Assembly (NCBI GenBank): GCA_965218235.1
Contig: OZ244595.1
Coordinates: 806,561-870,560 of the forward strand
Length of the DNA stretch: 64,000 nucleotides
Direction of reading: 5' to 3'
DNA from: Thermomicrobiales bacterium
Lineage (GTDB): Bacteria > Chloroflexota > Chloroflexia > Thermomicrobiales > UBA6265
Both the position numbers and the translations under genes were made by a program. Shown here piece by piece: positions 15,489-54,767 of the stretch (the stretch's first letter is position 1; the number at the start of each line of letters is the position of its first letter). The notes under the pieces are model-generated. The model was given only the letters and a program-made list of their open reading frames with translations. It was not told where the DNA came from and ran no database searches.

Positions 15489-16532
15489 ATGGGCCGTTCC
15501 CTTGTCGCCATCGCCTGTCTCCTCATGCTCAGTCTCAACGTCTGGTCCGTCCCCACCAGCGCTCAAGAGGCAACGCCCGCCGCAACTCCTGATGGCGCAG
15601 CCTCGCAGGCCACGGACTGCGTCGCCGGGACCGAGGAGCGCAACGCCGAGGTCGCTCGCCAGTGGGAGGCGGTCTGGGGCAATGAGGACGATGCCGCACT
15701 GGAGGCTCTGTCCCAGCCCGATATCACGCATCACGTGACCGATACCGAAGATATCTCCAACGTGGCGGACCTCCGCTCCCGGGTCCGGGCCTTCGCCGCG
15801 GCTTTCTCCGATCACACGCTGACGGTCGATGAGGTCATCGCCGATGGTGACTACGTCGTGGTCCGCTGGACCGCGACTGGCACCCAGACCGGCCCCTTCT
15901 TCGATCTGGAGCCGAGTGGCGTCGAGGCGACCTGGACCGGCATCAACATCTTTCGCTTCGAGTGTGGGCTCGTCGCTGAGAGCTGGAACGAGTTCGACGG
16001 GATCGGGCTCCGGGCGCAGCTGACCGGCGCGGACGACCCGACGGTGGGCGGTCCGGCGACACCGACCGCAGCCGCCACGCCGGCGGCCGACTGTGCCCCG
16101 ACCACGGAGCAGGACGTCGCCGGCGTCGCCACCCGCTGGGCGGATGTCTGGGATTCAGGCGATGTCGATCTCTACGACGAGCTGGCGTCTCCGGACTCCA
16201 TCCATCACTGGGGACTGGGCGATGACACGGCGTCCCTGGACGACTTCAAGGATCGGATCGGCGATTTCTTCACGGCCTTCCCGGACCTGACATCCACCGC
16301 GGAGGAGCCGATCGTCGAGGGCAATCTGGTCGCGATCCGCTGGTCGGAGACCGGAACGCAGACCGGCCCGCTGTTCGGCTTCGCGCCGACCGGCACCGAG
16401 GTCACCTGGACTGGGATCAACATCTTCCGGGTTGAGTGCGGCCAGGTCGTCGAGAGCTGGAGCGAGGCCGACGGGTTCGGGCTCCGCGACCAGCTTGAGG
16501 CCGCCTCCGGCGCCGCGACACCTGCCGCCTGA
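15489..16532 (+). CDS. Secreted protein with two tandem SnoaL-like (predicted ester cyclase / NTF2-like) domains
   Basis: Sec-type signal MGRSLVAIACLLMLSLNVWSVPTSAQ. Two internal repeats of ..RW..VW....D......HH....D....F..R....F.AF.D......VI..GD.V..RW..TGTQTGP.F...PTG.E..WTGINIFR.ECG..VESW.E.D, joined by a Pro/Thr/Ala linker. Confidence 0.75.
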   Translation: MGRSLVAIACLLMLSLNVWSVPTSAQEATPAATPDGAASQATDCVAGTEERNAEVARQWEAVWGNEDDAALEALSQPDITHHVTDTEDISNVADLRSRVRAFAAAFSDHTLTVDEVIADGDYVVVRWTATGTQTGPFFDLEPSGVEATWTGINIFRFECGLVAESWNEFDGIGLRAQLTGADDPTVGGPATPTAAATPAADCAPTTEQDVAGVATRWADVWDSGDVDLYDELASPDSIHHWGLGDDTASLDDFKDRIGDFFTAFPDLTSTAEEPIVEGNLVAIRWSETGTQTGPLFGFAPTGTEVTWTGINIFRVECGQVVESWSEADGFGLRDQLEAASGAATPAA

Positions 16533-16741
16533 TACCGCAAATCGAGGCGTTGGCCTGACGGTGTGCCCATGAGCATCTGGCGCCATGGCTATTCGCGGGA
16601 GGTGACGCGACGGTGCTGCGGCTGCCAGCGGCGTGGCTCCGGCTACGACGGCCGATCTCGCCGTTGCCCACGGCGGCCCGGCGGCCATGAGCCGAGCCTG
16701 AGACGATCTTGCCGAGTGACGGCATGGTAGCGACAATCAGC

Positions 16742-25349: not shown

Positions 25350-25538
25350 GCAACGCCCTCCTGCCGGACGGCCCGGCGATCCCTACCCCCGTTCAGACCG
25401 CCGCGTTCCGTCCACTTCCAATGGGGCTGAACCGCGGCGTCCGCCACGCCTATCTTCGCAGCAATCGGGTGAATGCACGACCGGACCCTTGGCTCGGACA
25501 ACCACGCCCGATCGTCGCGATCGTCGCTGGGCAAGCGC

Positions 25539-28247
25539 TCAACGGTCGTCGCGAACCTGATTGCCGGACATCGCCGCCCGGACCCGTTCCGGGGTAAATG
25601 GAACGGTCCGGAGGCGGGCGCCGGTGGCGGCAAAGATCGCGTTGCCGACGGCGGCGACCATCGGGCAGATCGCGCCCTCGCCGGCGCCGCATGACGGCTC
25701 GTCCGGCCGATCGATCAGGTCGATCGCGATCGCCGGGATGCCGGCGAAGCCGAGGATGGGGTAGCTGTCCCAGTCAAGTGCGGTGACGCGCGTCTCGTCC
25801 CAGGTCACCTCCTCGATCAGCGCCCGGCTGATTCCCTGGATGACGTTGCCCTCGATCTGGTTGCGGACGCCGTCCGGGTTCACGATTAGCCCGCAGTCAT
25901 GGGCGACGTAGACCCGGCTGACGCGGACGGCGCCGCTCGCCGGGACGACTTCGACCTCCGCGACGATGGCGACGTAGGCGTAGGCCGTTTCGTACCGGGC
26001 GAAGGCGACGCCGCGCCCGGTCAGCGCACCGTCGTCATTCGGCACTGGTCTGGCGGCATTCGACCCGGCGGGTCGTTGCTGCCAGCCGGCCAGCACGGCG
26101 GCCCGCTCGATCACGGCGATGGCGCGGGGATCGTCCAGGTGCCGGAGCCGGAACGCGACCGGGTCGGCCCCGGCGAGGGCGGCCAGCTCATCCATCGCCG
26201 TCTCGTTGGCGGTCGTGTTGGCGAGGCCACCGAGGCTGCGCAGGGCCGAGGGCCGCAGCGTTGGGTTCGTCACCCAGTGGGCGGTCAGCCGCTGGTTCGG
26301 GAAGCGGTAACTGGTCAGCGCGTTGCGGGTCCCACCGCCCCGGCCGAGCGGGGCGTAGGTGACCGGCGGCGACTTGAGCTGCGCGGCCAGCAGGTTGCCC
26401 GGCTGACCGCTGGGCCGGGTCGAGTGGGTCGGCGTCCAGACCTCGTAGGCCCAGGCGACGATGTCGTCGTCCGCACCGAGCCCGGTCCGGACCTCACAGA
26501 CCATCGCCGGCCCCTTGCCCTCCCAGGCGAACTCGCCCTGCCGCGACCAGATCACCCGGACGGGCCGTCCGACCGCCCGCGAGAGCAGGGCCGCGTCGGC
26601 CGCGACGTCGTCCGCCCCGTTGTGCCCGTAACAACCCGGTCCCTCCATATGGACGACGCGGACCGACGCTTCCGGCAGCCCGAGCACCGGCGCCAGCGCC
26701 TCTCGCAGCGAGAAGACGCCCTGCGACGCGCACCAGACCGTCGCGCCGTCCGGCCGGACATCGGCGACGGCGCAGGACGGCCCGATCGAGGCGTGGGCCT
26801 GCCACGGGTGCCGGTACGTCGCGGACAGGGTCTGCGTCGCCGCCGCGAAGCCCAGGTCGAGATCGCCGTCCGTCGCGATGTCCTGGTCGATGGTCGGTGC
26901 GTCGCGGATCGCGTCGAAGCGGTCGGCGAACGGCGGCAATCGGGCCGGCTCGGTCAACGTCGCCCGGAGCGCCTGGGCCGCGGCCAGCGCCTGGGCGTCC
27001 CGCTCGGCGACGACGCCGAGGAAGCTGCCGCTCCGGACCACGGCGACGATCCCTGGCAGGCCGTCGAGCGACGACTCGTCGACCGACACCAGCGTCGCGC
27101 CGACCCCGTCGATGGTCCGGACCATCGGCCGGATGACGCGGCCGTGGAGCATCCCGTCCAGCGTCAGGTCATGGACGTACGCTGCCCCGCCGGTCAGCTT
27201 GGCGAGCAGATCCACCCGCGGGACGGACTGCCCGACGACCTGATAGGCAGCCGGGTCCTTGAGCGTCACCTCGCCCGGCTCAACGATGGTCTGCCCGTCG
27301 ACGGGCGGATCACCGATCAGGTCGCCGTAGCCGATGCCAGGACCAAGCGAGGACGGATCGCGGATCACGCCGTCGGAGACGACCAGCCGATCGGACGGCT
27401 GATCGAGGCGCTGGGCGGCCCGGTCAAGCAGCGTTGTCCGGGCCCCGGCGGCGGCCCGCCGGAGGATGGGGCCAGCGCTCTGGATCGTCTTGCTGCCGGC
27501 CGTCGTTCCCTGATCCGGGGTCGTGGCGGTGTCGCCAGCGATCATCGTCAGGCAGTGGATTGGCAGATCGAGCTCCTCGGCGACGATCTGCGTCAGGGCG
27601 GTGCGGACCCCGGTCCCGAGCTCGACCTTGCCGGCCCGGATCGTGACGCGGCCGTCCGGGTGGAGCTCGATCAAGTCATTGAGCCGCTCGCCTGGTTCGC
27701 TCTCGGTCGCCGGTTCCGGTGTCGCGGGTGGGGTAAGGGACAACGCGGCGGCCGGGAGCGCCGCCGACAGTTTCGCCATCGCCCGGGCGGCGCGGCGGAC
27801 GGCCCGCATGATCCGGACGTGGGCGCCGCAGCGGCAGAGGTTGCCAGCGAGCGCGGCGTGGATCTCGGCGTTGGTCGGGTCGGGGGTCGTCGCGAGCAGC
27901 GCCGCGGTCGCGACGATCATGCCGGGGATGCAGTAGCCGCACTGGGCGGCCTGCTCATCGAGAAACGCCCGCTGGATCGGGTGAAGATCATTGCCGGGCG
28001 CGAGCCCTTCCAGCGTGGTGATCGCCGCCCCGGCCGCCTCCCGCACCGTCGTGACGCAGGACCGGATCGGCTCGCCGTCCCGCAGCACCGTGCAGACGCC
28101 GCACTGCGACAGCGCGCAGCCGATCTTCGCCCCATTGAGCCCGAGGTCGTTGCGCAGGGCGAGCAGCAGCAGGCTGTCCGGTTCGGCCGCGATGTCGTGG
28201 GTGTGGCCGTTGATGGTCAGAGTCATCGGGATTGTGGTTAGAGTCAT
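25539..28247 (-). CDS. Fused [2Fe-2S] small subunit and molybdopterin-binding large subunit of an IorA/IorB-type (aldehyde oxidase / xanthine dehydrogenase family) oxidoreductase
   Basis: The N-terminal ~155 aa carry both ferredoxin cluster motifs (GCALSQCGVCTV...SC and QCGYCIPG...CRCG). An Ala/Pro linker leads into IorB-like sequence (GKVELGTGVRTALTQIVAEELD...TPDQGTTAGS). No signal peptide. Confidence 0.8.
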   Translation of the reverse strand: MTLTTIPMTLTINGHTHDIAAEPDSLLLLALRNDLGLNGAKIGCALSQCGVCTVLRDGEPIRSCVTTVREAAGAAITTLEGLAPGNDLHPIQRAFLDEQAAQCGYCIPGMIVATAALLATTPDPTNAEIHAALAGNLCRCGAHVRIMRAVRRAARAMAKLSAALPAAALSLTPPATPEPATESEPGERLNDLIELHPDGRVTIRAGKVELGTGVRTALTQIVAEELDLPIHCLTMIAGDTATTPDQGTTAGSKTIQSAGPILRRAAAGARTTLLDRAAQRLDQPSDRLVVSDGVIRDPSSLGPGIGYGDLIGDPPVDGQTIVEPGEVTLKDPAAYQVVGQSVPRVDLLAKLTGGAAYVHDLTLDGMLHGRVIRPMVRTIDGVGATLVSVDESSLDGLPGIVAVVRSGSFLGVVAERDAQALAAAQALRATLTEPARLPPFADRFDAIRDAPTIDQDIATDGDLDLGFAAATQTLSATYRHPWQAHASIGPSCAVADVRPDGATVWCASQGVFSLREALAPVLGLPEASVRVVHMEGPGCYGHNGADDVAADAALLSRAVGRPVRVIWSRQGEFAWEGKGPAMVCEVRTGLGADDDIVAWAYEVWTPTHSTRPSGQPGNLLAAQLKSPPVTYAPLGRGGGTRNALTSYRFPNQRLTAHWVTNPTLRPSALRSLGGLANTTANETAMDELAALAGADPVAFRLRHLDDPRAIAVIERAAVLAGWQQRPAGSNAARPVPNDDGALTGRGVAFARYETAYAYVAIVAEVEVVPASGAVRVSRVYVAHDCGLIVNPDGVRNQIEGNVIQGISRALIEEVTWDETRVTALDWDSYPILGFAGIPAIAIDLIDRPDEPSCGAGEGAICPMVAAVGNAIFAATGARLRTVPFTPERVRAAMSGNQVRDDR

Positions 28248-28502
28248 GAAGAGTCTTTCAAGCGCGACAGATGTCGTCCGATTTGTGGTACAGGGTAGTT
28301 CGTTGCACGATACCTGCCGGTCGGGAGCTGGTGTCGTTGCGCTTTTCGATCACTGGAGAGGGTTTGTGCGGCGTTCATTCGCCTGAAAACTTCGACAGAT
28401 GGGAAGGAGCAGCTGATTCGAGTGTCGGAGTTGTGGCAAATCATGGGAAGATCACCTGTATGGCTCTGAATCTGGAGACGGCAAGAGAGGGCGGCCGGGA
28501 TC

Positions 28503-28691
28503 ATGGCGATGACGATCGATGCACGAGTCGAAGTCTGGAAACAGGAATTGCTCGAGTTGTCCAACCGCAATCCACTCCTGAGCATGAGTCGGTCGACAAC
28601 TCGCATGGCAACGCTCAGGATTACGGCTCCCTCAGCCGGTGAGATCTACGCCCACCTTGCCGACGGTGGGCGGCCGCTCATCCTGATGTGA
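28503..28691 (+). pseudogene. N-terminal DUF4011-like fragment of the large helicase gene, ended by an in-frame TGA
   Basis: MAMTIDARVEVWKQELLELSNRNPLLSM matches the usual N-terminus of DUF4011 helicases. It shares the frame of 28770..33395 and is separated from it only by TGA at 28689-28691. Confidence 0.65.
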
Positions 28692-28769
28692 ACCGAACCC
28701 TCGCTCCCGCTCGACCAAGAGGCATTCAGCGACCGCGCTGACCTGCAGGCCACACCGGACGATGACTTC

Positions 28770-31700
28770 GTGGTTGGCAAGCTCGACGGTGTGGCCAATT
28801 CGGATCCCGATCTCAGGACCGCGTCCAGCAAGCCGACGGACAAGCTTCCCGCAAAGGGCACTGTTCGGGTCGGTCTGTCCCCTGAGCGGGCAATCCATGT
28901 CAGCCGGGCAGTGCGGAAAAGAGCTCGAGAGTCGGAGCAGGAGCAGGGCATCAACACGCTGTTTGCGGCCTGCGGGACGTTGAAATGGCGTGAGTCCGCT
29001 ACGGGCAGTGGTTCCGACGCCTGGCGTTATGCCCCGCTGCTTCTCCTGCCGGTGCGAATCGAAGAGAATGTCCGGGCCGGCCGTCATACTCTGTTGGCGA
29101 CGGGCGACGACCCGGAATACAACCAGACACTAGCCGAGCGACTTCGCCGCGATTTTCGGATCGAGTTGCCCATCGACGTCGATGTCAGCGACGCGGACGA
29201 CATGGCCGGACTGGCGGCGATACTCCAGGCAGTTCGGTCGGCGGTCGCACTGATGCCGGACTGGGAGGTTCTGGACGAAGTAAATGTCGGGACGTTCAAG
29301 TTTCACAAGCTGCGGATGTTCCAGGATCTTGATGAGCACCGCGATGTCGCGATCCGTCACCCGATCGTGCAGGCACTTGCCGACCCAAACCGGACGGTCG
29401 CGGGCCTGCCGTCCGATGTGCCTCGCCCCGAGGATCTGGACCGGGTGGTCACACCGAAGCAGACCTTTAGTGTGCTGGACGCTGATGCGAGCCAGATGTG
29501 GGCGATCCAGGCGGCGAAACGGGGTAGCAACCTGATCGTTCAGGGGCCGCCGGGTACGGGCAAGAGCCAGACGATCGCGAATATCATCGCCGAATGCCTC
29601 GCGGCCAACAAGACGGTGCTCTTCGTCTCTGAGAAAGCCGCTGCAATCGAGGTCGTTCATCGTCGCCTGACCCAGCGCGGTCTGGGCGAGTTCTGCCTGA
29701 TGCTCCATAGCCAGAAATCGAATAAGCTCCAAATCGTTCGCGACCTTGCGGCGCGGCTCACTCCGGCGACGGTCGATGGTGACCCGCGACAGGAAGATCA
29801 TGATCTTGACCGGCTCGGGCAGGTTCGCGAGCGATTGAATGCCTACGCGACCTCGCTGCATCGGCGACACGAGCCGCTGGGCCGGTCAGCATTCGAAGTC
29901 CACGGCCTGCTCACAGCCCTCGACGACAACGGAGAACTTCCTGATCTCGTTGCCTCAATGCCTTCGGTCTCGATGCTGACATGGAGTGCTCTGGAAGGCT
30001 GGCAGACCATCGTTGGGGAAGCGGTTCGATCTGCACCAGTTCTGGCGGAAGGCGACCTTCACATCTGGGCGGGTTTTCGGCTCCGGGAGATCGGCTTTAC
30101 TGAGCGCTCGGAACTCACCCAGCTCCTGACTGATATGTCTGCGACGTTGAACGATACCGAAGGATCGGGCGCCCGGCTAGCGTCGACGCTCGGGATGCCT
30201 GCGCCCGAAACGATTCCGGCCGCCAGGGCACTTCGAGATCTGGCGGAAGCGATCCCGGTCGAGCGCGTCCTGCGTGCTGACTGGCTCGGGGCCGACCAGC
30301 ACGCCAGAGCGACGATGCTGTTGAACGAGGCGATGGAGCGGACCCGCTCGGCCACCGAGATGCGGACTGGATTGTTCTCGCGCTACGGTGACCGCATCCT
30401 GCGGGTCGCCACCCCGGAGACGATCGCGACCTATGAGACGGGGTGGTTCAGTCGCCTGTTCTCGGGGCCTCACCGTGGAGCCCGGGCTGCCGTTCGAGCT
30501 GCGTCGATCGACGCTAAGCAGCGATCGGTCACCAAGGAACTCGCCGATCTCCGTCGCGCAGCCGAACTCCATGGACAACTCGCCTGGTTCGGGGAGCAGG
30601 AGACTCCCCTCCGGACAGCACTCGGAGTCGATCTCGACCCAACGGGCATCGCGGACGCCGGCGCGCTCGCCGAGCGTCAGGCTGACCTCGCTGCCTCAGC
30701 CAGTCTCATCGACCGATATCGTCTCCGGTCCGTTCCGGCGTCGCTGGTCGCGGCGATCGGTCAGCCAGGCGCCGGAGTCCGTGTAGCGACGGCGCTTTCC
30801 GAATTGAACGACTGCATGACCCGACTTATTAGCCACCTCGCGGGATTGCAACGGTTCTTCGAACCGGAAACAATGGTGGTTCGAAGCGATACCACCATCG
30901 TCCCAATCGATCAGGGGACCGTTGGGCTCGGCCGGGAATGGCTAGAGGCGCGCCTCCAGCGGATGGACGACCTTGACGACTGGCTACGGGCGCAACGGGC
31001 GGCCGATGCCATCCGGGCCGCCGGTCTCACGGATGCCGTTGCTGAGCTCGAGCGCAAGGGCGTCGACACCGTCCGCTGGGTGGATACCCTCACCCGAACG
31101 GCCCTGCGGCGTTGGCTGGATTACGCCTATCGTCAGGACGGGATGCTCTCCCGCTTCAGCGGTGCCGACCACGAGCGGGACATCTCCGCGTTTCGGGATC
31201 TCGACCGCCGTCAGGTCGACTTCGCGGTGCGGCGCATCCGCCGTCGTCTAGCCACGGGCCAGCCCAACCTGAATGGGGCCGTGGGAGAGCCGGGCATTCT
31301 GCTCAAGGAGGCGAACAAGCGGCGCAACGTCAAGCCGCTGCGCTGGCTGTTCGCCCGGATCCCGACCCTGGTCCCGATCCTCAAGCCCTGTCTGATGATG
31401 AGTCCATTATCGGTTGCCCAGTTCCTGCCAGCCGACCAGTACCACTTCGATGTGATCATGTTCGATGAGGCATCGCAGGTTCGCCCGCACGACGCGATCG
31501 GCTCGATCATGCGGGGGACACAGCTCATCGTCGCCGGTGACGAGCAGCAGTTGCCCCCGACGAGTTTCTTCGACCGGTCCTCGACCGAGACTGAGGATGA
31601 TTCAGACGAAGATGACAGTCTTGCGGCGATGGAGAGTATCCTCGGCGCTTTGTCAGCCAAGCAGATGCCGACCGCGCCGCTGCTCTGGCACTACCGAAGC

Positions 31701-33395
31701 AGGCATGAGGACCTGATCGCCTTCTCCAACCACAACATCTACGACGGCCGGCTCATCACGTTCCCGTCCCCCAGCGCCGAGCGCGGACCGCGGGCCGGCG
31801 TGCGGCTGGAGTACGTCCCGGATGGCGTCTACGACGTAGGCATGGGCACATTTGGGGGCTCGTCGGACCGCTCCAATCCGGTCGAGGCCAAGCGGGTGGT
31901 CGAACTAGTGATGGCGCATGTCCGGGAGCGACCGGATGAGTCTCTGGGGGTCGTCGCCCTCAACGAGGATCACGCGCAAACAATCCAGTCGGCCCTTTTC
32001 GTCGCCCAGCAAGCCACCCCCGAGCTCCAGGAGTTCTTCCGTGAGGACCGCCCAGATCCGTTCTTCGTCAAGCCCCTGGAATTGATTCAAGGGGACGAGC
32101 GCGACGTGATCTTAATCAGCATCGGCTTCGGACGGAACGCGAAGGGGGTGCTGTCGCACAACTTTGGGCCGATCAACAACGAAGGCGGGGAGCGCCGCCT
32201 GAACGTGCTGGTCACCCGCGCGCGTGAACAGATCGTCGTTGTGTCATCCATTCGCGCCGGCGACATCGACCTGAACCGGACTCAGAAGCTTGGGCCGAAG
32301 CTGCTGCGCGACTATCTCGACTTCGCTGAGCGGGGCGCGGTCGCGTTGTCGCAGGCAACCCGAGGCGGTGATGGCGCGTTCGAGTCGCCATTCGAAGCTA
32401 GCGTTTGCGTGGCGCTTGAGTCGGCCGGCCATACCGTGCGCAGGCAGGTCGGCGCATCGTCGTTCCGGATTGACCTGGCGATCGTGGATCCTCGTCAGCC
32501 GGGGCGCTATCTGCTGGGCATCGAATGCGACGGCGCGACCTATCACTCGTCGAAGACTGCGCGAGACCGTGACCGGTTGCGGCAGGAGATCCTCGAGGGT
32601 CTGGGCTGGACGATCCATCGGGTCTGGTCGACCGACTGGATTAGGAACCCGCAGCGCGCACTGGCCAAGCTGACGGACCGCATCGAAGCTTTGCTCGCCC
32701 AACCAGTTGCGAAACGTCCCGTCCTTCGTGAGTTATCTCCGCCGCAGCCAACCGAGACCGTTATCCAGGCGGACAGTCCGACTCTGTCGTCAGGGAAGTC
32801 AATGGGTCGTCCCGGGACTGAAACGTTTGTGATCCCGACTGACCGCCCGCCGCTGCTGCCGCCATACCGAATGGCGCGGTTGACGACTCGCACCGGAGAA
32901 CTAACGGCTACACCGATCGCCCTGGTCGCGGAGGTCGTCATCGAGTGCGTCACGATCGAAGGGCCGATCCATCGCGAACTTCTGGGACGGCGGATCGCCG
33001 GAGTTTGGGGACATGGTCGTCAGGGCAACCGAATCGTCTCCCATCTGGACGCGGCGGTGGCGCTTGCCGTTCTACATGGGAACATCCGCCAGTTCGACGC
33101 GTTCCTATGGCCCACGACGAGTCTCGGTCTGGTCGCTCGCGGTCCGGCGATCGAAGGGGAGCCCCGGGCGATGGGGGTCATTGCCGGGGAGGAACTCGTT
33201 CTGGGTATGGTTGCGGTGCTCGGTCAGGCGCTGTCGCTTCCGGCCGACGAGCTAATTACCCAGACGACCCGTGCGTTCGGCTTTCAGCGCGTAGGAGCCG
33301 ACAACCGCGCTCGTCTTGTCGGAGTCCTTGGCGCCGCAGTTGCCAGCAAACAGATAGAGGCGGTCGGGGAGATGTATCGGCTGCCCAGAACGTAG
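28770..33395 (+). CDS. Large DUF4011 / Upf1-like SF1 helicase (AAA_11/AAA_12) / PD-(D/E)xK (DUF559-like) nuclease / DUF3320 protein; longest intact ORF from GTG 28770
   Basis: Walker A GPPGTGKSQT (~29544), FDEASQ (~31461), VAGDEQQLPPT, YRSRHE, VLVTRAREQ. Vsr/DUF559-like block FRIDLAIVDP...IECDGATYHSS..ARDRDRLRQ..LE.LGW.IHRVWSTDW (~32385..32660). DUF3320-like tail. Hand-counted lines inside the gene gave 48% and 53% G+C. Confidence 0.8.
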   Translation: MVGKLDGVANSDPDLRTASSKPTDKLPAKGTVRVGLSPERAIHVSRAVRKRARESEQEQGINTLFAACGTLKWRESATGSGSDAWRYAPLLLLPVRIEENVRAGRHTLLATGDDPEYNQTLAERLRRDFRIELPIDVDVSDADDMAGLAAILQAVRSAVALMPDWEVLDEVNVGTFKFHKLRMFQDLDEHRDVAIRHPIVQALADPNRTVAGLPSDVPRPEDLDRVVTPKQTFSVLDADASQMWAIQAAKRGSNLIVQGPPGTGKSQTIANIIAECLAANKTVLFVSEKAAAIEVVHRRLTQRGLGEFCLMLHSQKSNKLQIVRDLAARLTPATVDGDPRQEDHDLDRLGQVRERLNAYATSLHRRHEPLGRSAFEVHGLLTALDDNGELPDLVASMPSVSMLTWSALEGWQTIVGEAVRSAPVLAEGDLHIWAGFRLREIGFTERSELTQLLTDMSATLNDTEGSGARLASTLGMPAPETIPAARALRDLAEAIPVERVLRADWLGADQHARATMLLNEAMERTRSATEMRTGLFSRYGDRILRVATPETIATYETGWFSRLFSGPHRGARAAVRAASIDAKQRSVTKELADLRRAAELHGQLAWFGEQETPLRTALGVDLDPTGIADAGALAERQADLAASASLIDRYRLRSVPASLVAAIGQPGAGVRVATALSELNDCMTRLISHLAGLQRFFEPETMVVRSDTTIVPIDQGTVGLGREWLEARLQRMDDLDDWLRAQRAADAIRAAGLTDAVAELERKGVDTVRWVDTLTRTALRRWLDYAYRQDGMLSRFSGADHERDISAFRDLDRRQVDFAVRRIRRRLATGQPNLNGAVGEPGILLKEANKRRNVKPLRWLFARIPTLVPILKPCLMMSPLSVAQFLPADQYHFDVIMFDEASQVRPHDAIGSIMRGTQLIVAGDEQQLPPTSFFDRSSTETEDDSDEDDSLAAMESILGALSAKQMPTAPLLWHYRSRHEDLIAFSNHNIYDGRLITFPSPSAERGPRAGVRLEYVPDGVYDVGMGTFGGSSDRSNPVEAKRVVELVMAHVRERPDESLGVVALNEDHAQTIQSALFVAQQATPELQEFFREDRPDPFFVKPLELIQGDERDVILISIGFGRNAKGVLSHNFGPINNEGGERRLNVLVTRAREQIVVVSSIRAGDIDLNRTQKLGPKLLRDYLDFAERGAVALSQATRGGDGAFESPFEASVCVALESAGHTVRRQVGASSFRIDLAIVDPRQPGRYLLGIECDGATYHSSKTARDRDRLRQEILEGLGWTIHRVWSTDWIRNPQRALAKLTDRIEALLAQPVAKRPVLRELSPPQPTETVIQADSPTLSSGKSMGRPGTETFVIPTDRPPLLPPYRMARLTTRTGELTATPIALVAEVVIECVTIEGPIHRELLGRRIAGVWGHGRQGNRIVSHLDAAVALAVLHGNIRQFDAFLWPTTSLGLVARGPAIEGEPRAMGVIAGEELVLGMVAVLGQALSLPADELITQTTRAFGFQRVGADNRARLVGVLGAAVASKQIEAVGEMYRLPRT

Positions 33396-33416
33396 ATTCA
33401 CACACGATACCAAAAA

Positions 33417-33456
33417 GGCAGGGCCGAGAATGCTAAATCCCCGGCCCTGCCTTTCT
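33417..33456. terminator. Bidirectional rho-independent terminator
   Basis: AAAAA, then GGCAGGGCCG (33417-33426), a 15-nt loop, CGGCCCTGCC (33442-33451), then TTTCT. It lies between convergent genes. Confidence 0.75.
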
Positions 33457-33485
33457 GATGTCGCTTGGACTCCCGTCGATGGCCC

Positions 33486-35897
33486 TTACGCCGACAACGC
33501 CTGGATCGCGGCCAGGACCTTGGCTGGGGTGTAGGGGGTCTGGCGGAGGCGGGCGCCGGTCGCGTCGAAGATCGCGTTGCTGACGGCCGCCGCGATCGGG
33601 CAGATGGCGGGCTCGCCGGCGCCGAGGGGCGGCTGATCCGGCCGGTCGATCAGCTCGATCTCGATCAGCGGGATGTCGGCGAACCCCATGATCGAGTAGG
33701 TCGACCAGTCCAGGCTCGTGACCGCTGCGGCGTCGAAGGTGACTTCCTCCTTGAGCGCCCGGCCGATCCCCTGGATCACGCAGCCGTCGATCTGGTTCAT
33801 CAGCCCATTCGGATTGATGATCAGCCCGCAGTCATGCCCGACGACGATCCGGTCGACCCGGACCGTCCCGTCGGCCGGGTTGACCGTCACCTCGGCGATC
33901 GTCGCGGCGTAGGCGAACGCGGTCTCGTAGCGGGCGAACGCGATCCCGCGACCGGTCACGGTGCCATCGGCCGCCGGGACGACGCCGGACGATTGCGGAC
34001 CGGACGGTCGGGCCTGCCAGCCCGCCCGGGTCGCGGCCCGCTGGATGACCTCGATCGCTCGGGGGTCGGCCAGGTGCCGGAGCCGGAACTCGACCGCGTC
34101 GGCCCCGGCCAGCGCCGCCAGTTCCTCCATGAAGCTCTCGTTGGCTGTCACATTGGCGACCGCGCCAAGACTCCGGAGCGCCGAGGGACGCAGCGGTGGC
34201 GTCTCGACCCAGTTCACGGTCAGGCGCTGGTTGGGGATGGAGTAGTCGTTCGGCGCGTTGCGGTCGCCGCCGACCTGTCCGAGCGGGGCGGTCTCGACCG
34301 GTGGGTCGATCTGCTGCCCGACGAGCATGTTGCCGGGCTGGCCACCGGGCCGGGTCGAGTGGGTGGGGGTGAAGACAGTGTAGTCCCAGGCGACGATGTT
34401 GCCGTCCGAGTCGAGCCCGCCGCGGATGTCCATCACCATCGCCGGACCCTTGGGCTCCCAGGCGAACTCGCCCTGCCGCGACCACAGGAGCCGGACCGGC
34501 CTCCCGACCGCCTGCGACAGGACCGCCGCGTCGGCACAGACGTCGTCGGCGCCGTTGTGGCCGTAGCAGCCGGCCCCCTCCTTGTAGATCACACGGACCT
34601 GCTCCGGCGCCAGCCCGATGATCGGGCCGATCGCCGCCGGCAGCGCGTAGACGCCCTGGGAGGCCGAGTAGATCGTCGCGTCGTCGGGCCGGACGTCGGC
34701 GATCGAGCAGGACGGTCCCATCGAGGCATGGGCCTGGAACGGGTGCTGGTAGGTTGCCTCCAGCATCCTGGTCGTCCGGGTCGTGAAGGCACCGTCGACG
34801 TCGCCGGTCCGGACGGTCTCGTCGGTCTCGGCCGGCATCTCCCGGATCAGGTCGTAGAGCTGGTTGATGTCGGGCAGCGTCTCGGTCTGCGTCCACGTCA
34901 CCTTGATCGCGTCGGCGTAACGGAGCGCCTGCTCCTCGCGCTCCGTCACGACCCCGACGAAGGAGCCGTTCTGGACGATGGCGATCAGCCCCGGCTGCCC
35001 CTGGACGGCACTGTCGTCGATGCTGGCGACCGTCGAGCCGATCCCGTTTAGGGTGCGGACGTAGGGCCGGATCACCCGGGCGTGGACCATCCCTTCGACG
35101 GTGAGGTCGTGGATGTAGGCCTCGCCGCCGGTCAGCTTGGTCGTGATGTCGATCCGCGGGATGGACTGGCCGACCACCCGGTAGGCGTCGTAGGGCTTGA
35201 CGGGGGCGTCGCCGGTGATGGCCTGGCCGAACGACGCGGTCGCGAGCTGGCCGTAGGTAACGGTCTTCGTCGAATCGAACAGCGCCGTGACGACGCCAGA
35301 CTCGACCTGCAGGTTGTCGACCGGGACCGCGAGCTGCTCGGAGGCGCGGGTCAGCAGCACGAGGCGGGCTTCGGCCGCGGCCTGCTGGAGGACGGGGCCG
35401 GCGACCTGGATGCTCTTGCTGCCGGCCGTCGTGCCCTGGTCGGGCGTCGTCAGGGTGTCGCCGGCGATCAGGGTGGCGGACGCGAAATCGACGTCGAGCT
35501 CCTCGACCACGATCTGGGTGAGCGAGGTCCAGAGCCCGGTCCCGAGCTCGACTTTGCCGCAGTAGATCGTGACCTTGCCCTCGCCGTCGATGCTCAGCCA
35601 GGAGTCGATCGTGTCGCCGGTGACGTCGCGGGTCTGGACGTCCTGGCCGGTCTGGTCGGCCGGCGTCGCGACGATGCCGGGGCCGGTCGTCGGCGTTCCG
35701 GCTGGAGTGCCCGCCGGTGCGACGGTCGGCTCCTGCGCCATCAGGCCGGCCCGGCGGAAGGCCGCGGCGAGACTGAAGCCGATCACGACGCCACCGGAGC
35801 CCTTGAGCAGGGTGCGGCGGCTGACCGGCGAGACGCGGGCTTCGGACTCGAACGGTGCGTCAGGAGAGACGGGGGCCTCGGGAGGTGCTGCGGTCAT
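33486..35897 (-). CDS. IorB-type molybdopterin-binding oxidoreductase large subunit with a TAT signal
   Basis: AAAGGA RBS before ATG 35897. Twin-arginine motif SRRTLLKGSGGVVIGFSLAAAF. Roughly 55-60% identical by eye to the C-terminal part of 25539..28247. Confidence 0.8.
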   Translation of the reverse strand: MTAAPPEAPVSPDAPFESEARVSPVSRRTLLKGSGGVVIGFSLAAAFRRAGLMAQEPTVAPAGTPAGTPTTGPGIVATPADQTGQDVQTRDVTGDTIDSWLSIDGEGKVTIYCGKVELGTGLWTSLTQIVVEELDVDFASATLIAGDTLTTPDQGTTAGSKSIQVAGPVLQQAAAEARLVLLTRASEQLAVPVDNLQVESGVVTALFDSTKTVTYGQLATASFGQAITGDAPVKPYDAYRVVGQSIPRIDITTKLTGGEAYIHDLTVEGMVHARVIRPYVRTLNGIGSTVASIDDSAVQGQPGLIAIVQNGSFVGVVTEREEQALRYADAIKVTWTQTETLPDINQLYDLIREMPAETDETVRTGDVDGAFTTRTTRMLEATYQHPFQAHASMGPSCSIADVRPDDATIYSASQGVYALPAAIGPIIGLAPEQVRVIYKEGAGCYGHNGADDVCADAAVLSQAVGRPVRLLWSRQGEFAWEPKGPAMVMDIRGGLDSDGNIVAWDYTVFTPTHSTRPGGQPGNMLVGQQIDPPVETAPLGQVGGDRNAPNDYSIPNQRLTVNWVETPPLRPSALRSLGAVANVTANESFMEELAALAGADAVEFRLRHLADPRAIEVIQRAATRAGWQARPSGPQSSGVVPAADGTVTGRGIAFARYETAFAYAATIAEVTVNPADGTVRVDRIVVGHDCGLIINPNGLMNQIDGCVIQGIGRALKEEVTFDAAAVTSLDWSTYSIMGFADIPLIEIELIDRPDQPPLGAGEPAICPIAAAVSNAIFDATGARLRQTPYTPAKVLAAIQALSA

Positions 35898-35928
35898 CGG
35901 GTGATCCTTTCCCACGACGTCGGATGAA

Positions 35929-36408
35929 CTACGCGGTGGCGCCGGCGGCCCGCTGGATGGCGCGGACGATCCGGACGTGGGTCCCACAGCGGCAGAGGTT
36001 GCCGGCGAAGGCCGTGTTGATGTCGTCCTGGGTCGGCTCCGGTGTGGATTCGAGCAGTGCGGCGGCGGTCATCATCATGCCGGGGATGCAGTAGCCGCAC
36101 TGGGCGGCCTGCTCGGCGATGAACGCCTGCTGGATCGGGTGGAGCTCGCTGCCGGGCGCGAGCCCTTCGAGGGTCGTGATCTCGGAACCGGCGACGGACT
36201 GGACCTGGGTGACGCAGGAGCGGATCGGCTGTCCATCCTGGTGGACGGTGCAGGCGCCGCACTGGGCCAGGCCGCAGCCGAACTTGGCGGCGTGAAGGCC
36301 GAGCTCGTTGCGGAGCACGTAGAGGAGCGGCGTGTCGGGCGTGGCCTGGACCTCGTGCGGCTGGCCGTTGATCGAGAGGGTGAGGGGCGTGGCCGGGGTG
36401 CTCTGCAT
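35929..36408 (-). CDS. IorA-type (2Fe-2S)-binding small subunit
   Basis: GAAGGAG RBS before ATG 36408. GCGLAQCGACTV...SC and QCGYCIPG...CRCG motifs. It sits 31 nt upstream of the large-subunit start. Confidence 0.85.
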   Translation of the reverse strand: MQSTPATPLTLSINGQPHEVQATPDTPLLYVLRNELGLHAAKFGCGLAQCGACTVHQDGQPIRSCVTQVQSVAGSEITTLEGLAPGSELHPIQQAFIAEQAAQCGYCIPGMMMTAAALLESTPEPTQDDINTAFAGNLCRCGTHVRIVRAIQRAAGATA

Positions 36409-36484
36409 CTGCAGCTCCTTCGTCGATTGTGGTCCACGACGACCACATGGTGTCCCCTGAGGTGGGGACGGCAGGAAGAATCTC

Positions 36485-36513
36485 ATTATCGTAGCCAGTC
36501 GGGCCGTGGTCAA
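36485..36513 (-). promoter_or_regulatory. Sigma-70-like promoter candidate for the split iorA/iorB-like operon (TTGACC-17 nt-GATAAT on the minus strand)
   Basis: -35 is the complement of 36508-36513 and -10 is the complement of 36485-36490. The ~75-nt leader contains two 6-bp-stem hairpins (36430-36447 and 36452-36469). Confidence 0.45.
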
Positions 36514-37008
36514 TGTCTCAGCAGTACCCGGTTTCTCCAAAGACAAACACTTCGGAGAAATGGTGACTAGTCAACGATTGAATATCATGCTCGACGAACC
36601 CAGATGTGAATGTCGTGTCAGCCCTCCCATCACGATGGTTGATCACCACCGGCCGGACACGACGAATCCACCTGGCGAATCACGCAGGATCGTCCCTCGA
36701 TGCAACGAGTCGATCGCCGATGGGTAGGTCCGGTCCTCTCACGCCAGGCTCCGTATACTGCCTGAGACACCGGCGGAGGTGACCCAGGTGGTGTAGGTTG
36801 CTCATGTCGTCCGGCGTGGACCACACCCCGGCCTGGACGGGAACCATCCAGACATCGACAATCGCTGGTCGGTTCATCCCGGCCGGATTTCTTGCTGTCC
36901 GCCGACATCATCAACCGACCGTCACCCACGACAATCATTCGCATCCGCCCTCGCTCGTCATCGGAGCCGATCCTCTCTCGATGGTTCTGAGCGAAGGGAA
37001 CACGACGG

Positions 37009-54101: not shown

Positions 54102-54455
54102 TCACGAGACCTTGATCATCCGCTCGACCAGCGTGGCGCATCTCTGGAGCGTCGTCCGACTGACCGTGCTCCTCCGATACAACAAACGACGATGATCAAC
54201 GGCCCGAATCTGATCGCAGAGGATGTCGGAGTCGTCGTCCAGGCCGGTTTCAGACGCATCGACATGGACGCGAGTGGGGATATTCTTGATCTGTCGCGAC
54301 ATGGGAAGGACGATCGAGACCCAACGGGCGGCGTTGACGCCGTCGACCGAAAGGATCAACGCCGGGCGAATCCCGCTCTGCTCATGCCCCAGGGTGGGCT
54401 CGAAGTCGATCTCCCAGATCTCTCCCTGCCGCGGGAATGGGTTCGCCGTCGTCAC
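54102..54455 (-). CDS. MazF/PemK-family type II toxin (endoribonuclease)
   Basis: GEIWEIDFEPTLGHEQSGIRPALILS...VLPMS...ILCDQIRAVDHRRL fits the PemK pattern. It overlaps the upstream antitoxin gene by 4 nt. Confidence 0.8.
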   Translation of the reverse strand: MTTANPFPRQGEIWEIDFEPTLGHEQSGIRPALILSVDGVNAARWVSIVLPMSRQIKNIPTRVHVDASETGLDDDSDILCDQIRAVDHRRLLYRRSTVSRTTLQRCATLVERMIKVS

Positions 54456-54709
54456 GGCTTCGGTTCGTCGTGGAGACCATCAAGCAGGGTTCCGTCGAAT
54501 ACCTTGACCTCATCCTGCAGTACGGACCACTGGACAGGATCGGCGCGAATCGTCGCGATCTTCTCTTGATAATCCGCCCAGAAGCTCGCGTCGTCATACT
54601 GGCTGACGGCTTCCTCGACGATCGTGCTGATCGACTGCTTCCGCGCCGCGGCGAGTTGCTGGAGACGGTCTCGAGTCTTCGTCTGAATTCTGATCGTGGC
54701 TGTGTTCAT
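54452..54709 (-). CDS. Ribbon-helix-helix (CopG-like) antitoxin
   Basis: GGGAGGGA RBS before ATG 54709. MNTATIRIQTKTRDRLQQLAAARKQSISTIVEEAV has the RHH pattern. ATGA overlap with the toxin start. Confidence 0.7.
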   Translation of the reverse strand: MNTATIRIQTKTRDRLQQLAAARKQSISTIVEEAVSQYDDASFWADYQEKIATIRADPVQWSVLQDEVKVFDGTLLDGLHDEPKP

Positions 54710-54767
54710 GTCGTCCCTCCCGGCGGTGTGGCGATCACAGGGACCATCCGTGGTTGTCACGCATTCT

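What the first reader, a model, noticed from the sequence alone, without database searches (positions are those of the whole stretch)
28248..33485. Giant DUF4011 / Upf1-like helicase / PD-(D/E)xK / DUF3320 gene on a lower-GC islet between two paralogous molybdoenzyme loci
One reading frame of about 1630 codons (28503..33395) combines four parts:
- A DUF4011-type N-terminus (..VEVWKQELLELSNRNPLL..).
- A complete SF1 Upf1-like helicase core (GPPGTGKSQT, FDEASQ, VAGDEQQLPPT, VLVTRAREQ).
- A Vsr/DUF559-like PD-(D/E)xK nuclease block (IECDGATYHSS..RDRDR..VWSTDW).
- A DUF3320-type tail.

The gene is alone on the + strand. It sits between two same-orientation paralogs of an IorA/IorB-type oxidoreductase (25539..28247 and 33486..36408), and a strong bidirectional terminator closes it at 33417..33456. 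Hand-counted 60-nt lines gave 57% G+C just upstream of the gene and 48% and 53% inside it, versus 77% in the left flanking gene. That pattern suggests an acquired insertion.

This domain architecture is widespread but has no assigned function. Helicase-plus-nuclease fusions of the same helicase clade (Nhi, type II Mokosh) are established anti-phage proteins. A stand-alone nucleic-acid-targeting or defence role is therefore a reasonable but untested hypothesis.
Basis: partly seen in the sequence, partly recalled or inferred. Interest (0 to 1): 0.75.

Follow-up and report, generated by a model that had tools for sequence, protein, structure and literature searches.

The report
Broken helicase-nuclease defence gene in hotspot
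This is a large helicase-plus-nuclease gene of a family already catalogued as a candidate anti-phage system; it lies in a small swap-in/swap-out slot between two metabolic gene clusters, and the copy in this genome is cut short by a premature stop codon.

Summary
The gene and its four-part architecture are real: DUF4011, a Upf1-like SF1 helicase, a Vsr-like MTES_1575 nuclease and a DUF3320 tail. The 1630-codon frame, however, carries an in-frame TGA at codon 63, where relatives have a conserved Gly. The longest intact ORF is 28770..33395 (1541 aa). It lacks the conserved N-terminal motif.

The architecture is not unassigned. It matches PADLOC's candidate defence model PDC-S37 end to end (1360 bits). 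It is a sub-threshold relative of NCBIfam's anti-phage ProA (1304 vs 1500) and Hhe (838 vs 2000).

Comparison with related Thermomicrobiales contigs shows the slot just downstream of the right-hand IorB gene is variable:
- empty (L010);
- a window-like allele (L012);
- a 51%-identical allele (L001, L002/L013, L009);
- a GmrSD/HEC-06 type IV restriction enzyme (L011);
- a 1.2-kb low-GC filler (L005).

Flanking proteins are 82-97% identical (one at 68%). Synonymous divergence between the two helicase alleles (dS 1.41) far exceeds that of the adjacent genes (0.25-0.33). This points to allele replacement, not in-place drift.

Verdict: an ordinary member of a known candidate-defence family, probably recently inactivated, in a modestly interesting defence micro-hotspot with no integrase.

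The parts
28248..28502 (.). Divergent intergenic region between the fused Ior gene and the helicase gene (54.9% G+C). It presumably holds both promoters. It does not align with the equivalent region of the empty-site or allele-B contigs.
   Evidence: no sigma-70 consensus match
28503..28688 (+). First 62 codons of the ancestral gene, starting at ATG. They hold the conserved N-terminal DUF4011 positions W12, L16, N23, L25 and P43. The stop now separates them from the rest of the gene.
28689..28691 (+). In-frame TGA (codon 63), at the position of the conserved Gly in 'IVGTEP' of relatives. A single GGA-to-TGA change is the simplest cause (inferred). TGA is the commonest stop codon in this window.
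28770..33395 (+). Longest intact ORF (GTG start, 1541 aa, stop TAG). The public collection holds exactly this product as P0001, so the source record calls the gene from the downstream GTG.
28545..29144 (+). DUF4011 domain (aa 15-214). The TGA interrupts it.
   Evidence: 93.4 bits, profile positions 1-158 of 158
29484..29741 (+). Start of helicase RecA1 lobe (AAA_11 first part, aa 328-413). Includes Walker A GPPGTGKSQT at 29544-29573.
29760..31322 (+). Helical insertion of about 520 aa (about aa 420-940) inside RecA1. No Pfam match. In the surrogate model it is an all-helix bundle.
31335..31577 (+). Rest of RecA1: Walker B / motif II FDEASQ (aa 987-992) and motif III VAGDEQQLPPT (aa 1010-1020).
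31644..32249 (+). Helicase RecA2 lobe (AAA_12, aa 1048-1249). Includes the RRLNVLVTRA arginine-finger motif.
32391..32684 (+). Vsr-like PD-(D/E)xK nuclease (REase MTES_1575 / DUF559, aa 1297-1394). Invariant residues D1324, E1341, D1343 and H1348 are all present (…FRIDLAIVDP…LGIECDGATYH…).
32916..33392 (+). C-terminal tail of two winged-helix-like modules (DUF3320 at aa 1470-1512). A disordered linker (aa 1406-1444) precedes it.
   Evidence: PMC3710099 equates DUF3320 with a wHTH
33405..33463 (.). G+C-rich hairpin between the convergent helicase and IorB genes. It is a good intrinsic terminator for IorB (UUUUU tail on the - strand) and a weaker one for the helicase. Its sequence resembles the L012 hairpin, not that of the empty site.
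25539..28247 (-). Left flank: fused 2Fe-2S + molybdopterin-binding oxidoreductase (IorA/IorB-like, 902 aa).
33486..36546 (-). Right flank: IorB-like MoCoBD gene (33486..35987) and IorA-like 2Fe-2S gene (within 35929..36546). These conserved genes were used as anchors for the synteny survey.

Best explanation
**What it is.** The gene is a single-gene helicase-nuclease of the DUF4011 / Hhe / ProA superfamily. Its best match is PADLOC's candidate defence family PDC-S37. It is accessory cargo in a small variable slot immediately downstream of the right-hand IorB gene, in a Thermomicrobiales-like lineage.

**How it would work when intact (inferred from anatomy and from Hhe).**
- A Upf1/Sen1-like SF1B motor uses ATP to translocate 5'->3' along invader nucleic acid.
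- The covalently attached Vsr-like PD-(D/E)xK domain is the effector and cuts that nucleic acid.
- The N-terminal DUF4011 region, the ~520-aa helical insertion and the tandem winged-helix tail would provide substrate recognition or autoinhibition.

**State of this copy.** A nonsense change (Gly63 to TGA) has cut off the conserved N-terminus. The copy is most likely a recently inactivated pseudogene. At best it makes an N-terminally truncated 1541-aa product.

**Shown versus inferred.** Shown: family membership, motif integrity, the stop codon, presence/absence polymorphism, allele incongruence, and purifying selection in the past. Inferred: the anti-phage role of this subfamily, DNA as the substrate, and loss of function from the stop.
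For: **Family.**
- PADLOC PDC-S37: 1360 bits, aa 2-1626 against profile positions 2-1545 of 1550. The nearest relatives behave the same way.
- NCBIfam anti-phage ProA 1304 bits and Hhe 838 bits, as sub-threshold relatives.
- Hhe protects against lambda, T3, T7 and PhiV-1, and the nuclease mutant E1731A abolishes protection (bioRxiv 10.1101/2022.06.16.496414, citing Gao 2020).

**Motor and nuclease.**
- Sequence hits in the PDB are only Upf1-like helicases (IGHMBP2, UPF1, SEN1). Fold hits of the surrogate N-terminal model are SETX, Upf1, Sen1 and Aquarius.
- The C-terminal model (pLDDT 85.9) matches the DUF559-like 3hrl (TM 0.74) and the I-Bth0305I catalytic domain (TM 0.82), plus winged-helix modules.
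- All 215 positions that are >=95% conserved across 60 family members are retained here. Only 8 positions deviate from a >=90% consensus.

**Stop codon.**. The conserved residues W12, L16, N23, L25 and P43 lie upstream of it.

**Accessory status and hotspot.**
- Empty site in L010; window-like allele in L012 (83% aa over the last 187 residues); allele B at 51% in L001, L002/L013 and L009.
- GmrSD/HEC-06 in L011; low-GC filler in L005.
- DNA identity to L001 is 86.5% and 89.4% up to the ends of the Ior genes, then collapses.
- Helicase dS 1.41, dN 0.43, dN/dS 0.31, against dS 0.33 and 0.25 for the adjacent Ior genes.
- L012 and L013 are the closest pair at IorB (95.5% DNA identity) yet carry different alleles.
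- Window versus L012 helicase tail: dS 0.37, dN/dS 0.25, comparable to IorB dS 0.26. Allele A was therefore inherited vertically under constraint, and the stop is recent.

**Composition and mobility.** GC3 is 3.3 SD below the window mean. Superfamily members are on 490 plasmid records, 213 of them conjugative.
Against: - No experiment on PDC-S37 was found. PDCs are described as mostly unvalidated (PMC12988326). I could not locate the ProA primary paper.
- The window protein fails the curated cutoffs of both experimentally named families.
- Several relatives sit in plain metabolic neighbourhoods (L003, L004, L016). A large DUF4011 gene is a core gene in P. aeruginosa (PMC10250203). No other window ORF hits PADLOC at 1e-10.
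- No integrase, tRNA or flanking direct repeat marks the islet.
- High G+C bias at synonymous sites of the flanking genes may depress their dS. Two other flank genes reach 0.71-0.79, so the dS contrast is less extreme than 1.41 against 0.25 suggests.
- The stop could be a sequencing error. The substrate (DNA or RNA) is not established.
Confidence: 0.7

Rival explanations
1. The gene is intact and functional in the organism, and the TGA at 28689 is an assembly or sequencing error. The locus would then encode a normal 1630-aa PDC-S37-type protein.
For: There is only one lesion in 1630 codons. All catalytic motifs and all 215 highly conserved positions are kept. The allele was under purifying selection until recently: dN/dS 0.25 against L012.
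Against: The public record itself calls the 1541-aa product from the downstream GTG, so the stop is in the deposited sequence. The change is a substitution, not a homopolymer indel, which is the less typical kind of assembly error. No other sequenced copy of the allele-A N-terminus was available to compare, because L012 covers only the C-terminus.
Confidence: 0.15
2. The protein is a housekeeping genome-maintenance or repair helicase-nuclease, not a defence factor. Its position between metabolic genes would reflect ordinary chromosomal residence.
For: The immediate neighbours are metabolic. Relatives in L003, L004 and L016 are also among metabolic or housekeeping genes, including MutS. In P. 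aeruginosa a large DUF4011 gene is core (PMC10250203). Vsr-type nucleases and Upf1/Dna2-like helicases act in repair.
Against: A housekeeping gene would not be absent from a relative with 94.5% identical flanks (L010). It would not be replaced by a type IV restriction enzyme (L011), nor exist as two alleles at 51% identity whose distribution conflicts with the flank phylogeny. It would not tolerate a nonsense mutation. The superfamily is common on conjugative plasmids and is catalogued as defence or candidate defence.
Confidence: 0.1
3. The truncated 1541-aa product starting at GTG 28770 is made and still active, or has altered regulation. The stop would be a functional N-terminal trimming rather than inactivation.
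For: The downstream ORF keeps most of DUF4011 (from aa 90), the whole motor, the nuclease and the tail. In the surrogate model the first ~66 residues form a small unit joined to the rest by a disordered linker at residues 68-104, so the remainder could fold without them.
Against: The lost segment contains the family's conserved N-terminal motif (W12, L16, N23, L25, P43), and it models with high confidence (pLDDT 83-91), which suggests it matters. There is no convincing ribosome-binding site before GTG 28770. Most full-length relatives start at the upstream position.
Confidence: 0.05

Closest known systems
PADLOC PDC-S37 (putative single-gene defence candidate, PADLOC-DB v2.0.0)
   Same: End-to-end HMM match: 1360 bits, aa 2-1626 against profile positions 2-1545 of 1550. 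Same length class (~1550-1650 aa), stand-alone gene, same domain order. The nearest relatives P0002, P0121 and P0004 match identically.
   Different: This copy carries a premature stop. It shares at most 57% identity with any sequence in the 5.8-billion-protein collection. PDC-S37 itself has no published phenotype that I could find.
Hhe / HheA (Gao et al. 2020; NCBIfam NF042953; DefenseFinder Gao_Hhe)
   Same: A DUF4011 N-terminus, a Upf1-like SF1 helicase and a Vsr-family nuclease in one polypeptide. Single-gene system. In Hhe the nuclease glutamate is essential (E1731A). The equivalent E1341 in …IECDG… is conserved here.
   Different: 838 bits against a curated cutoff of 2000. The best-aligned stretch covers only the C-terminal helicase lobe and nuclease (aa 812-1403). 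Hhe is ~1800-1900 aa, and Hhe-like hits such as P0096 show no DUF3320 in their Pfam lists. Hhe is found in Enterobacteria, often on Klebsiella plasmids.
ProA (NCBIfam NF058533, 'anti-phage protein ProA')
   Same: Co-linear over the whole window protein (aa 5-1596 against profile positions 356-1903), including the DUF3320 tail. 1304 bits.
   Different: Below the equivalog cutoff of 1500. The window protein lacks the first ~355 profile positions, ProA's extra N-terminal region. The primary literature for ProA was not found, so its phenotype is known to me only from the family name.
Upf1-like SF1B helicases fused or paired with nucleases (Dna2, Nhi, Mokosh MkoA/MkoC)
   Same: Same helicase clade by sequence (IGHMBP2, UPF1, SEN1) and by fold (SETX, Upf1, Sen1, Aquarius, Dna2). 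Same logic of a motor plus a nuclease.
   Different: Mokosh uses a PLD nuclease. Nhi is a much shorter protein (PADLOC model 470 positions). Their PADLOC models match only the RecA2 lobe (MkoA 1e-21, MkoC 2e-20) or barely at all (Nhi E 0.008). None has DUF4011, the ~520-aa helical insertion or the DUF3320 tail.
Core defence hotspots (e.g. P. aeruginosa cDHS1/cDHS2, PMC10250203)
   Same: Conserved core flanking genes bracket variable cargo that includes defence genes. No single mobile element explains the contents. In P. aeruginosa a DUF4011 gene also sits at the hotspot border.
   Different: This slot is tiny (0.2-5 kb, one gene at a time), in Thermomicrobiales, and bracketed by two paralogous Ior loci. 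Here the DUF4011 gene is the cargo, not the core flank.

Membership tests
PADLOC PDC-S37 | Full-length match to HMM PDLC05009 | tested here: met
   1359.9 bits, E = 0, aa 2-1626 against profile positions 2-1545 of 1550
PADLOC PDC-S37 | Single-gene system with no conserved partner gene | tested here: met
   Neighbours differ completely between the window/L001, L003, L004, L016 and L017
PADLOC PDC-S37 | Demonstrated anti-phage activity | not testable with these tools
   No paper in the library mentions PDC-S37. PDCs are described as mostly unvalidated (PMC12988326).
NCBIfam ProA (NF058533, equivalog) | Whole-protein score at or above the curated cutoff of 1500 bits | tested here: not met
   1304.1 bits. 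Relatives P0002, P0121 and P0004 score 1287-1359.
NCBIfam ProA (NF058533, equivalog) | Full-length architecture including the N-terminal ~355 profile positions | tested here: not met
   The alignment starts at profile position 356 for aa 5
Hhe (NF042953 / PADLOC PDLC02194) | Whole-protein score at or above the curated cutoff of 2000 bits | tested here: not met
   838.1 bits in NCBIfam and 593 bits in PADLOC. The best stretch covers only aa 812-1403.
Hhe (NF042953 / PADLOC PDLC02194) | DUF4011 + SF1 helicase + Vsr-family nuclease in one protein, with the catalytic Glu present | tested here: met
   Pfam domains. E1341, D1343 and D1324 are invariant in the family and present here.
Upf1-like SF1B helicase | Walker A, Walker B (DEAS), motif III (GDxxQLPP) and an Arg-finger motif; AAA_11 and AAA_12 profiles; Upf1-like fold | tested here: met
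   PDB sequence hits to IGHMBP2, UPF1 and SEN1. Fold hits to SETX, Upf1 and Sen1 came from the surrogate P0062 model, which is 48-49% identical to the window protein.
Vsr-like PD-(D/E)xK nuclease (REase MTES_1575 / DUF559) | Profile match above cutoff, conserved acidic catalytic residues, and Vsr-like fold | tested here: met
   PF18741: 128.6 bits against a cutoff of 38.2, profile positions 1-96 of 96. Invariant D, E, D and H. Model matches 3hrl (TM 0.74) and 3r3p (TM 0.82).
Mokosh type II (MkoC) / Nhi | Full-length match; PLD nuclease (Mokosh) or the Nhi model | tested here: not met
   MkoA and MkoC models hit only aa ~980-1256. Nhi has E 0.008. There is no PLD domain.
Defence hotspot / variable islet | Conserved flanks with presence/absence and alternative cargo in close relatives | tested here: met
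   L010 is empty. L012 has allele A. L001, L002/L013 and L009 have allele B. L011 has GmrSD. L005 has a filler.
Defence hotspot / variable islet | The alternative cargo includes a recognised defence gene | tested here: met
   L011 12651-14333: GmrSD_N and GmrSD_C (5.7e-38 and 1.4e-22); PADLOC Orf5 564 bits, HEC-06 247 bits, mREase_IV
Defence hotspot / variable islet | Hallmarks of a mobile element (integrase or transposase, tRNA target, direct repeats) | tested here: not met
   No tRNA in the window. No significant flanking repeats. The adjacent ORFs examined are all metabolic.
Functional (intact) gene | Uninterrupted reading frame from the conserved start | tested here: not met
   TGA at codon 63, 28689-28691

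The most novel reading that the evidence does not exclude
The intergenic slot just downstream of IorB may be a recombination-driven defence micro-hotspot with no integrase in a desert- or rock-dwelling Thermomicrobiales lineage. Homologous recombination in the conserved Ior flanks would move single defence genes in and out. Deeply diverged PDC-S37 alleles (51% identical, dS about 1.4) would be kept in the population by phage-driven balancing selection, alongside a GmrSD enzyme, an unknown small ORF, empty sites and decaying copies like this one. If so, the locus gives natural-population evidence that the still-unvalidated PDC-S37 family is a real immune gene. It would also be a case of gain, replacement and loss caught in one population.
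Probability: 0.45. Interest if true: 0.5.

Novelty: new member of a known kind. Interest (0 to 1): 0.35.

Why it matters
On its own the gene is a divergent member (at most 57% identity to anything known) of a helicase-nuclease family that defence-annotation tools already flag. It also appears to be broken.

The added value is the context. Among contigs with closely related flanks, the same slot between two Ior loci is empty, holds either of two very different alleles of this gene, or holds a type IV restriction enzyme. That is independent population-genetic support that PDC-S37-type proteins behave as defence cargo, in Chloroflexota/Thermomicrobiales. It also shows that 'same position in a relative' does not mean 'vertically inherited'.

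Intact alleles for a first functional test of PDC-S37 are available: L001/L002, or the window gene with codon 63 repaired.

Tried and rejected
- **Recoding at the TGA (selenocysteine or readthrough).** Rejected. TGA is the commonest ordinary stop in the window, and relatives have Gly there.
- **In-place rapid evolution or pseudogene decay as the cause of 51% identity to the syntenic copy.** Rejected. Both alleles keep full frames, dN/dS is 0.31, and dS is 4-6 times that of the adjacent genes. The allele distribution also conflicts with the IorB tree.
- **A mobile element.** No tRNA, no flanking direct or inverted repeats beyond chance, and no integrase among the adjacent ORFs examined.
- **Exact insertion junctions.** The upstream intergenic regions of the empty, allele-A and allele-B loci do not align. 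Only the 3' side could be compared.
- **The source organism.** The exact protein is in NCBI/ENA on a 1.84-Mb contig with no name, and the exact-product lookup failed. The genome scan did not return the source itself, only Thermomicrobiales MAGs at 77-81%. Megablast against plasmids found nothing relevant.
- **Primary literature for ProA and PDC-S37.** Not found.
- **Structure of the repaired N-terminus.** Its fold search showed only the Upf1-like core and gave no assignment for DUF4011.
- **Sigma-70 promoter and terminator scan.** It found no promoter and missed the hairpin because of its loop-length limit.


Full report

Pfam finds each claimed part above its curated threshold:

| Domain | Residues | Score |
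|---|---|---|
| DUF4011 | aa 15-214 | 93 bits |
| AAA_11 | two stretches, best aa 328-413 | 60.6 bits |
| AAA_12 | aa 1048-1249 | 52.6 bits |
| REase MTES_1575 | aa 1297-1394 | 128.6 bits (E 9e-38); DUF559 is a weaker overlapping hit |
| DUF3320 | aa 1470-1512 | 50.7 bits |

The frame is not open, however. Codon 63 (28689-28691) is TGA. The longest uninterrupted ORF is 28770..33395 (GTG start, 1541 aa). The public protein collection holds exactly this product (P0001, one 1.84-Mb NCBI/ENA contig).

TGA is the commonest ordinary stop in the window. In an alignment with 59 relatives, the stop falls on the Gly of a conserved '…IVGTEP…' stretch. A single GGA-to-TGA change is the simplest cause; this is an inference.

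The 62 codons upstream are clearly homologous to the family N-terminus. They contain its nearly invariant positions W12, L16, N23, L25 and P43.

The flanks are as described:
- Left: a fused 2Fe-2S + molybdopterin-binding gene, 25539..28247 (-).
- Right: a split paralog, MoCoBD at 33486..35987 (-) and 2Fe-2S within 35929..36546 (-).
- Each window Ior protein is ~58% identical to the other paralog (measured against the L001 copies).

The hairpin between the convergent genes (33405-33463) folds at -34.6 kcal/mol (+ strand) and -49.5 kcal/mol (- strand), with z about -6.6. Only the minus-strand (IorB) transcript has a clean U-run after the stem.

The composition signal is real but was overstated:
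- Gene G+C is 63.7%, against 72.0% and 70.6% in the flanking genes.
- GC3 is 74%, against 90% and 92%.
- That GC3 is 3.3 SD below the mean of 44 other window ORFs.

**2. What family is it?**

PADLOC-DB's model PDC-S37 matches end to end: 1360 bits, aa 2-1626 against profile positions 2-1545 of 1550.

NCBIfam's equivalog models for two named anti-phage proteins match below their cutoffs:
- ProA: 1304 bits against a cutoff of 1500. The alignment starts only at profile position 356, so the window protein lacks ProA's extra N-terminal region.
- Hhe: 838 bits against a cutoff of 2000. The best-aligned stretch covers the C-terminal helicase lobe and the nuclease.

The closest relatives (P0002, P0121, P0004) behave identically.

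Mokosh models hit only the RecA2 lobe, and Nhi barely registers.

What the literature says about these families:
- PDCs are 'putative defense candidates' found by a guilt-by-embedding approach, and most are unvalidated (PMC12988326). No paper in the library mentions PDC-S37.
- Hhe (Gao 2020) protects E. coli against lambda, T3, T7 and PhiV-1. It loses activity with the nuclease mutation E1731A (bioRxiv 10.1101/2022.06.16.496414).
- DUF3320 was earlier equated with a winged HTH, and MTES_1575 with a novel Vsr-family REase (PMC3710099).

So 'no assigned function' is out of date. The protein is a new, divergent member of a known candidate-defence kind, at most 57% identical to anything in 5.8 billion clustered proteins.

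**3. Anatomy and integrity.**

By sequence, the only solved relatives are Upf1-like SF1B helicases: IGHMBP2, UPF1 and SEN1.

I modelled the C-terminal 376 residues (aa 1255-1630). The model has mean pLDDT 85.9 and shows three parts:
- an alpha/beta nuclease domain;
- a disordered linker (aa 1406-1444);
- two winged-helix-like modules.

Foldseek against the PDB matched the nuclease to the DUF559-like NGO0050 (3hrl, target TM 0.74) and to the Vsr-like catalytic domain of I-Bth0305I (3r3p, TM 0.82). The tail matched SelB, cullin and kleisin-type winged helices. E-values are weak because the query is multi-domain.

The repaired N-terminus could not be submitted. I therefore modelled a surrogate that is 48-49% identical (P0062, 1034 aa, pLDDT 85.6). 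It shows:
- an ordered unit at residues 1-66, joined by a disordered linker to a beta-rich DUF4011 body;
- the RecA1 lobe;
- a ~520-residue all-helical insertion.

Its fold hits are SETX, Upf1, Sen1, Aquarius and Dna2.

Across 60 family members, all 215 positions conserved at >=95% are retained in the window protein. These include:
- Walker A, G348-T357;
- DEASQ, aa 988-992;
- GDxxQLPP, aa 1012-1019;
- RRLNVxxTRA, aa 1231-1240;
- nuclease residues D1324, E1341, D1343 and H1348.

The protein departs from a >=90% consensus at only 8 non-catalytic positions. Apart from the stop, the gene looks healthy.

**4. Context: a variable slot, not a fixed gene and not a one-off insertion.**

The window's neighbours are metabolic. 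No other window ORF hits PADLOC at 1e-10. There is no tRNA and no flanking repeat.

I used the exact-protein lookups and the IorB gene as an anchor in the genome and metagenome collections. This recovered nine related contigs. The genome-collection hits are named Thermomicrobiales MAGs, so the window is probably from that order. This is an inference; the source itself carries no name.

The slot immediately downstream of IorB contains the following:

| Contig(s) | IorB identity to window | Slot contents |
|---|---|---|
| L010 | 94.5% (protein) | Nothing. A ~225-bp spacer with its own hairpin, then the fused Ior gene and the same downstream gene order as the window |
| L012 | 94.7% | A window-like helicase allele: 83% aa and 86% DNA identity over the last 187 codons |
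| L001, L002 (= L013), L009 | ~95% | A second allele, only 51-52% identical |
| L011 | 84% | A 51-53% G+C segment encoding a convergent GmrSD-type type IV restriction enzyme (Pfam GmrSD_N/C; PADLOC Orf5 564 bits, HEC-06, mREase_IV). This family is reported as experimentally active. |
| L005 | 81% | A 1.24-kb, ~50% G+C filler with an unassignable 186-aa ORF, then the fused Ior gene |
| L007 | 80% | Lower-GC DNA with an SNF2/RapA-like helicase |
| L006 / L014 | 77-78% | Ordinary metabolic genes |

**5. Are the syntenic copies orthologs?**

Between the window and L001, flanking proteins are 82-97% identical, with one at 68%. DNA identity is 86.5% and 89.4% right up to the ends of the Ior genes (28224 and 33484). 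In between, only 70-73% patches remain.

Nei-Gojobori estimates:
- Helicase: dS 1.41, dN 0.43, dN/dS 0.31.
- The two adjacent Ior genes: dS 0.33 and 0.25.
- All other flank genes: dS 0.11-0.79.

The two alleles are therefore considerably older than the split of their host genomes, and they evolved under purifying selection. That rules out both in-place decay and simple fast drift.

One caveat applies. Extreme G+C bias at synonymous sites of the flanks probably depresses their dS somewhat.

Allele distribution is also incongruent with the flanks. L012 and L013 are the closest pair at IorB (95.5% DNA identity), yet they carry different alleles. In a neighbour-joining tree, the window groups with P0002, which has a different left flank, before it groups with allele B.

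The 3' hairpin travels with the allele. The window's hairpin resembles L012's. Allele B keeps the hairpin of the empty site.

By contrast, the window and L012 copies of allele A differ by dS 0.37 and dN/dS 0.25, against dS 0.26 for their IorB genes. Allele A was therefore inherited with its flanks and under constraint, and the nonsense mutation must be recent.

**6. Wider distribution.**

Superfamily members at 29-40% identity occur on 490 plasmid records:
- Klebsiella, 243 records, many annotated 'hhe';
- Ralstonia megaplasmids;
- rhizobia;
- haloarchaea.

Of these, 213 are conjugative plasmids. Members are almost absent from phage genomes.

The neighbourhoods of other subfamily members are mixed:
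- Metabolic in L003, L004 and L016.
- Defence-island-like in L017, which has VapC, a methylase with Vsr, HigB and ImmA-like genes.

In P. aeruginosa a large DUF4011 gene is a core gene bordering defence hotspot cDHS1 (PMC10250203).

**7. Best explanation and rivals.**

Best explanation (confidence about 0.7). This is a PDC-S37-type single-gene helicase-nuclease carried as accessory, probably defensive, cargo in a small slot with no integrase, bracketed by the Ior loci. When intact:
- a Upf1-like 5'->3' motor would track along invader nucleic acid;
- the tethered Vsr-like PD-(D/E)xK domain would cut it, by analogy with Hhe's nuclease dependence;
- the DUF4011 region, the helical insertion and the winged helices would serve recognition or autoinhibition.

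All of these mechanistic steps are inferred. This copy was recently inactivated by Gly63 to stop.

Rivals:
- The stop is a sequencing error (0.15).
- The protein is a housekeeping repair enzyme (0.10). The presence/absence pattern, the replacement by GmrSD and the allele incongruence contradict this.
- The truncated 1541-aa product is active (0.05).

**8. Novelty and score.**

This is a new member of a known kind. The family and architecture are already in defence-annotation databases, and the copy is broken, so the gene itself is of modest interest.

The micro-hotspot is a useful but unsurprising extension of the defence-hotspot concept to Thermomicrobiales. It shows empty, two-allele and restriction-enzyme states. 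It also offers natural support for the untested PDC-S37 family. Interest 0.35.

Noticed in passing
window 54102-54760 (-): A PemK/MazF toxin gene (54102-54455, Pfam 5.4e-26) overlaps by 4 nt with an upstream ribbon-helix-helix antitoxin gene (54452-54760). G+C is 0.59-0.61 in a 0.67 window. This is a second small low-GC islet and a type II toxin-antitoxin pair.
   Followed up: partly
L011 12651-14333 (-): A GmrSD-family (DUF262/DUF1524) type IV restriction enzyme in 51-53% G+C DNA occupies the same convergent position after IorB that the helicase occupies in the window. Its best PADLOC hits are Orf5 and HEC-06.
   Followed up: yes
L005 11977-13214: A 1.24-kb, ~50% G+C filler lies between the two Ior loci in a Thermomicrobiales MAG. 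It carries a 186-aa ORF (12464-13024) with no Pfam or PADLOC match. It could be unknown cargo or a remnant.
   Followed up: partly
L007 9204-13465 (-): In another Thermomicrobiales MAG, the DNA after IorB drops to 62-64% G+C. It encodes a 1094-aa SNF2/RapA-like helicase plus a 326-aa RapA_C-like protein. I could not tell whether this is defence cargo or housekeeping RapA.
   Followed up: partly
L001 4984-6516 (-) versus window 25350-25538: L001 and L002 carry an extra PLP-dependent decarboxylase gene between the 214-aa membrane-protein gene and the fused Ior gene. The window and L010 lack it, and L011 has a fragment (15743-16738). This is a second indel polymorphism a few kb from the helicase slot.
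   Followed up: no
window 25539-28247 versus 33486-36546: The two Ior paralogs are organised differently. The left one is a single fused 2Fe-2S+MoCoBD gene (902 aa). The right one is split into two genes. Both forms are conserved in L001 and L010. They are same-orientation repeats of ~71% DNA identity flanking the slot.
   Followed up: partly
L017 16257-18788: Next to a PDC-S37-type gene in an unrelated metagenome contig lies a C5 DNA methylase, a 310-aa unknown and a stand-alone Vsr, arranged like a restriction-modification system. VapC, HigB and ImmA-like genes are also nearby. This is a defence-island-like context, unlike the window's.
   Followed up: no
NCBIfam NF058533: NCBI's annotation library names a 1903-position 'anti-phage protein ProA' family that is co-linear with this protein. 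Four literature searches (also 9) found no paper describing it.
   Followed up: partly
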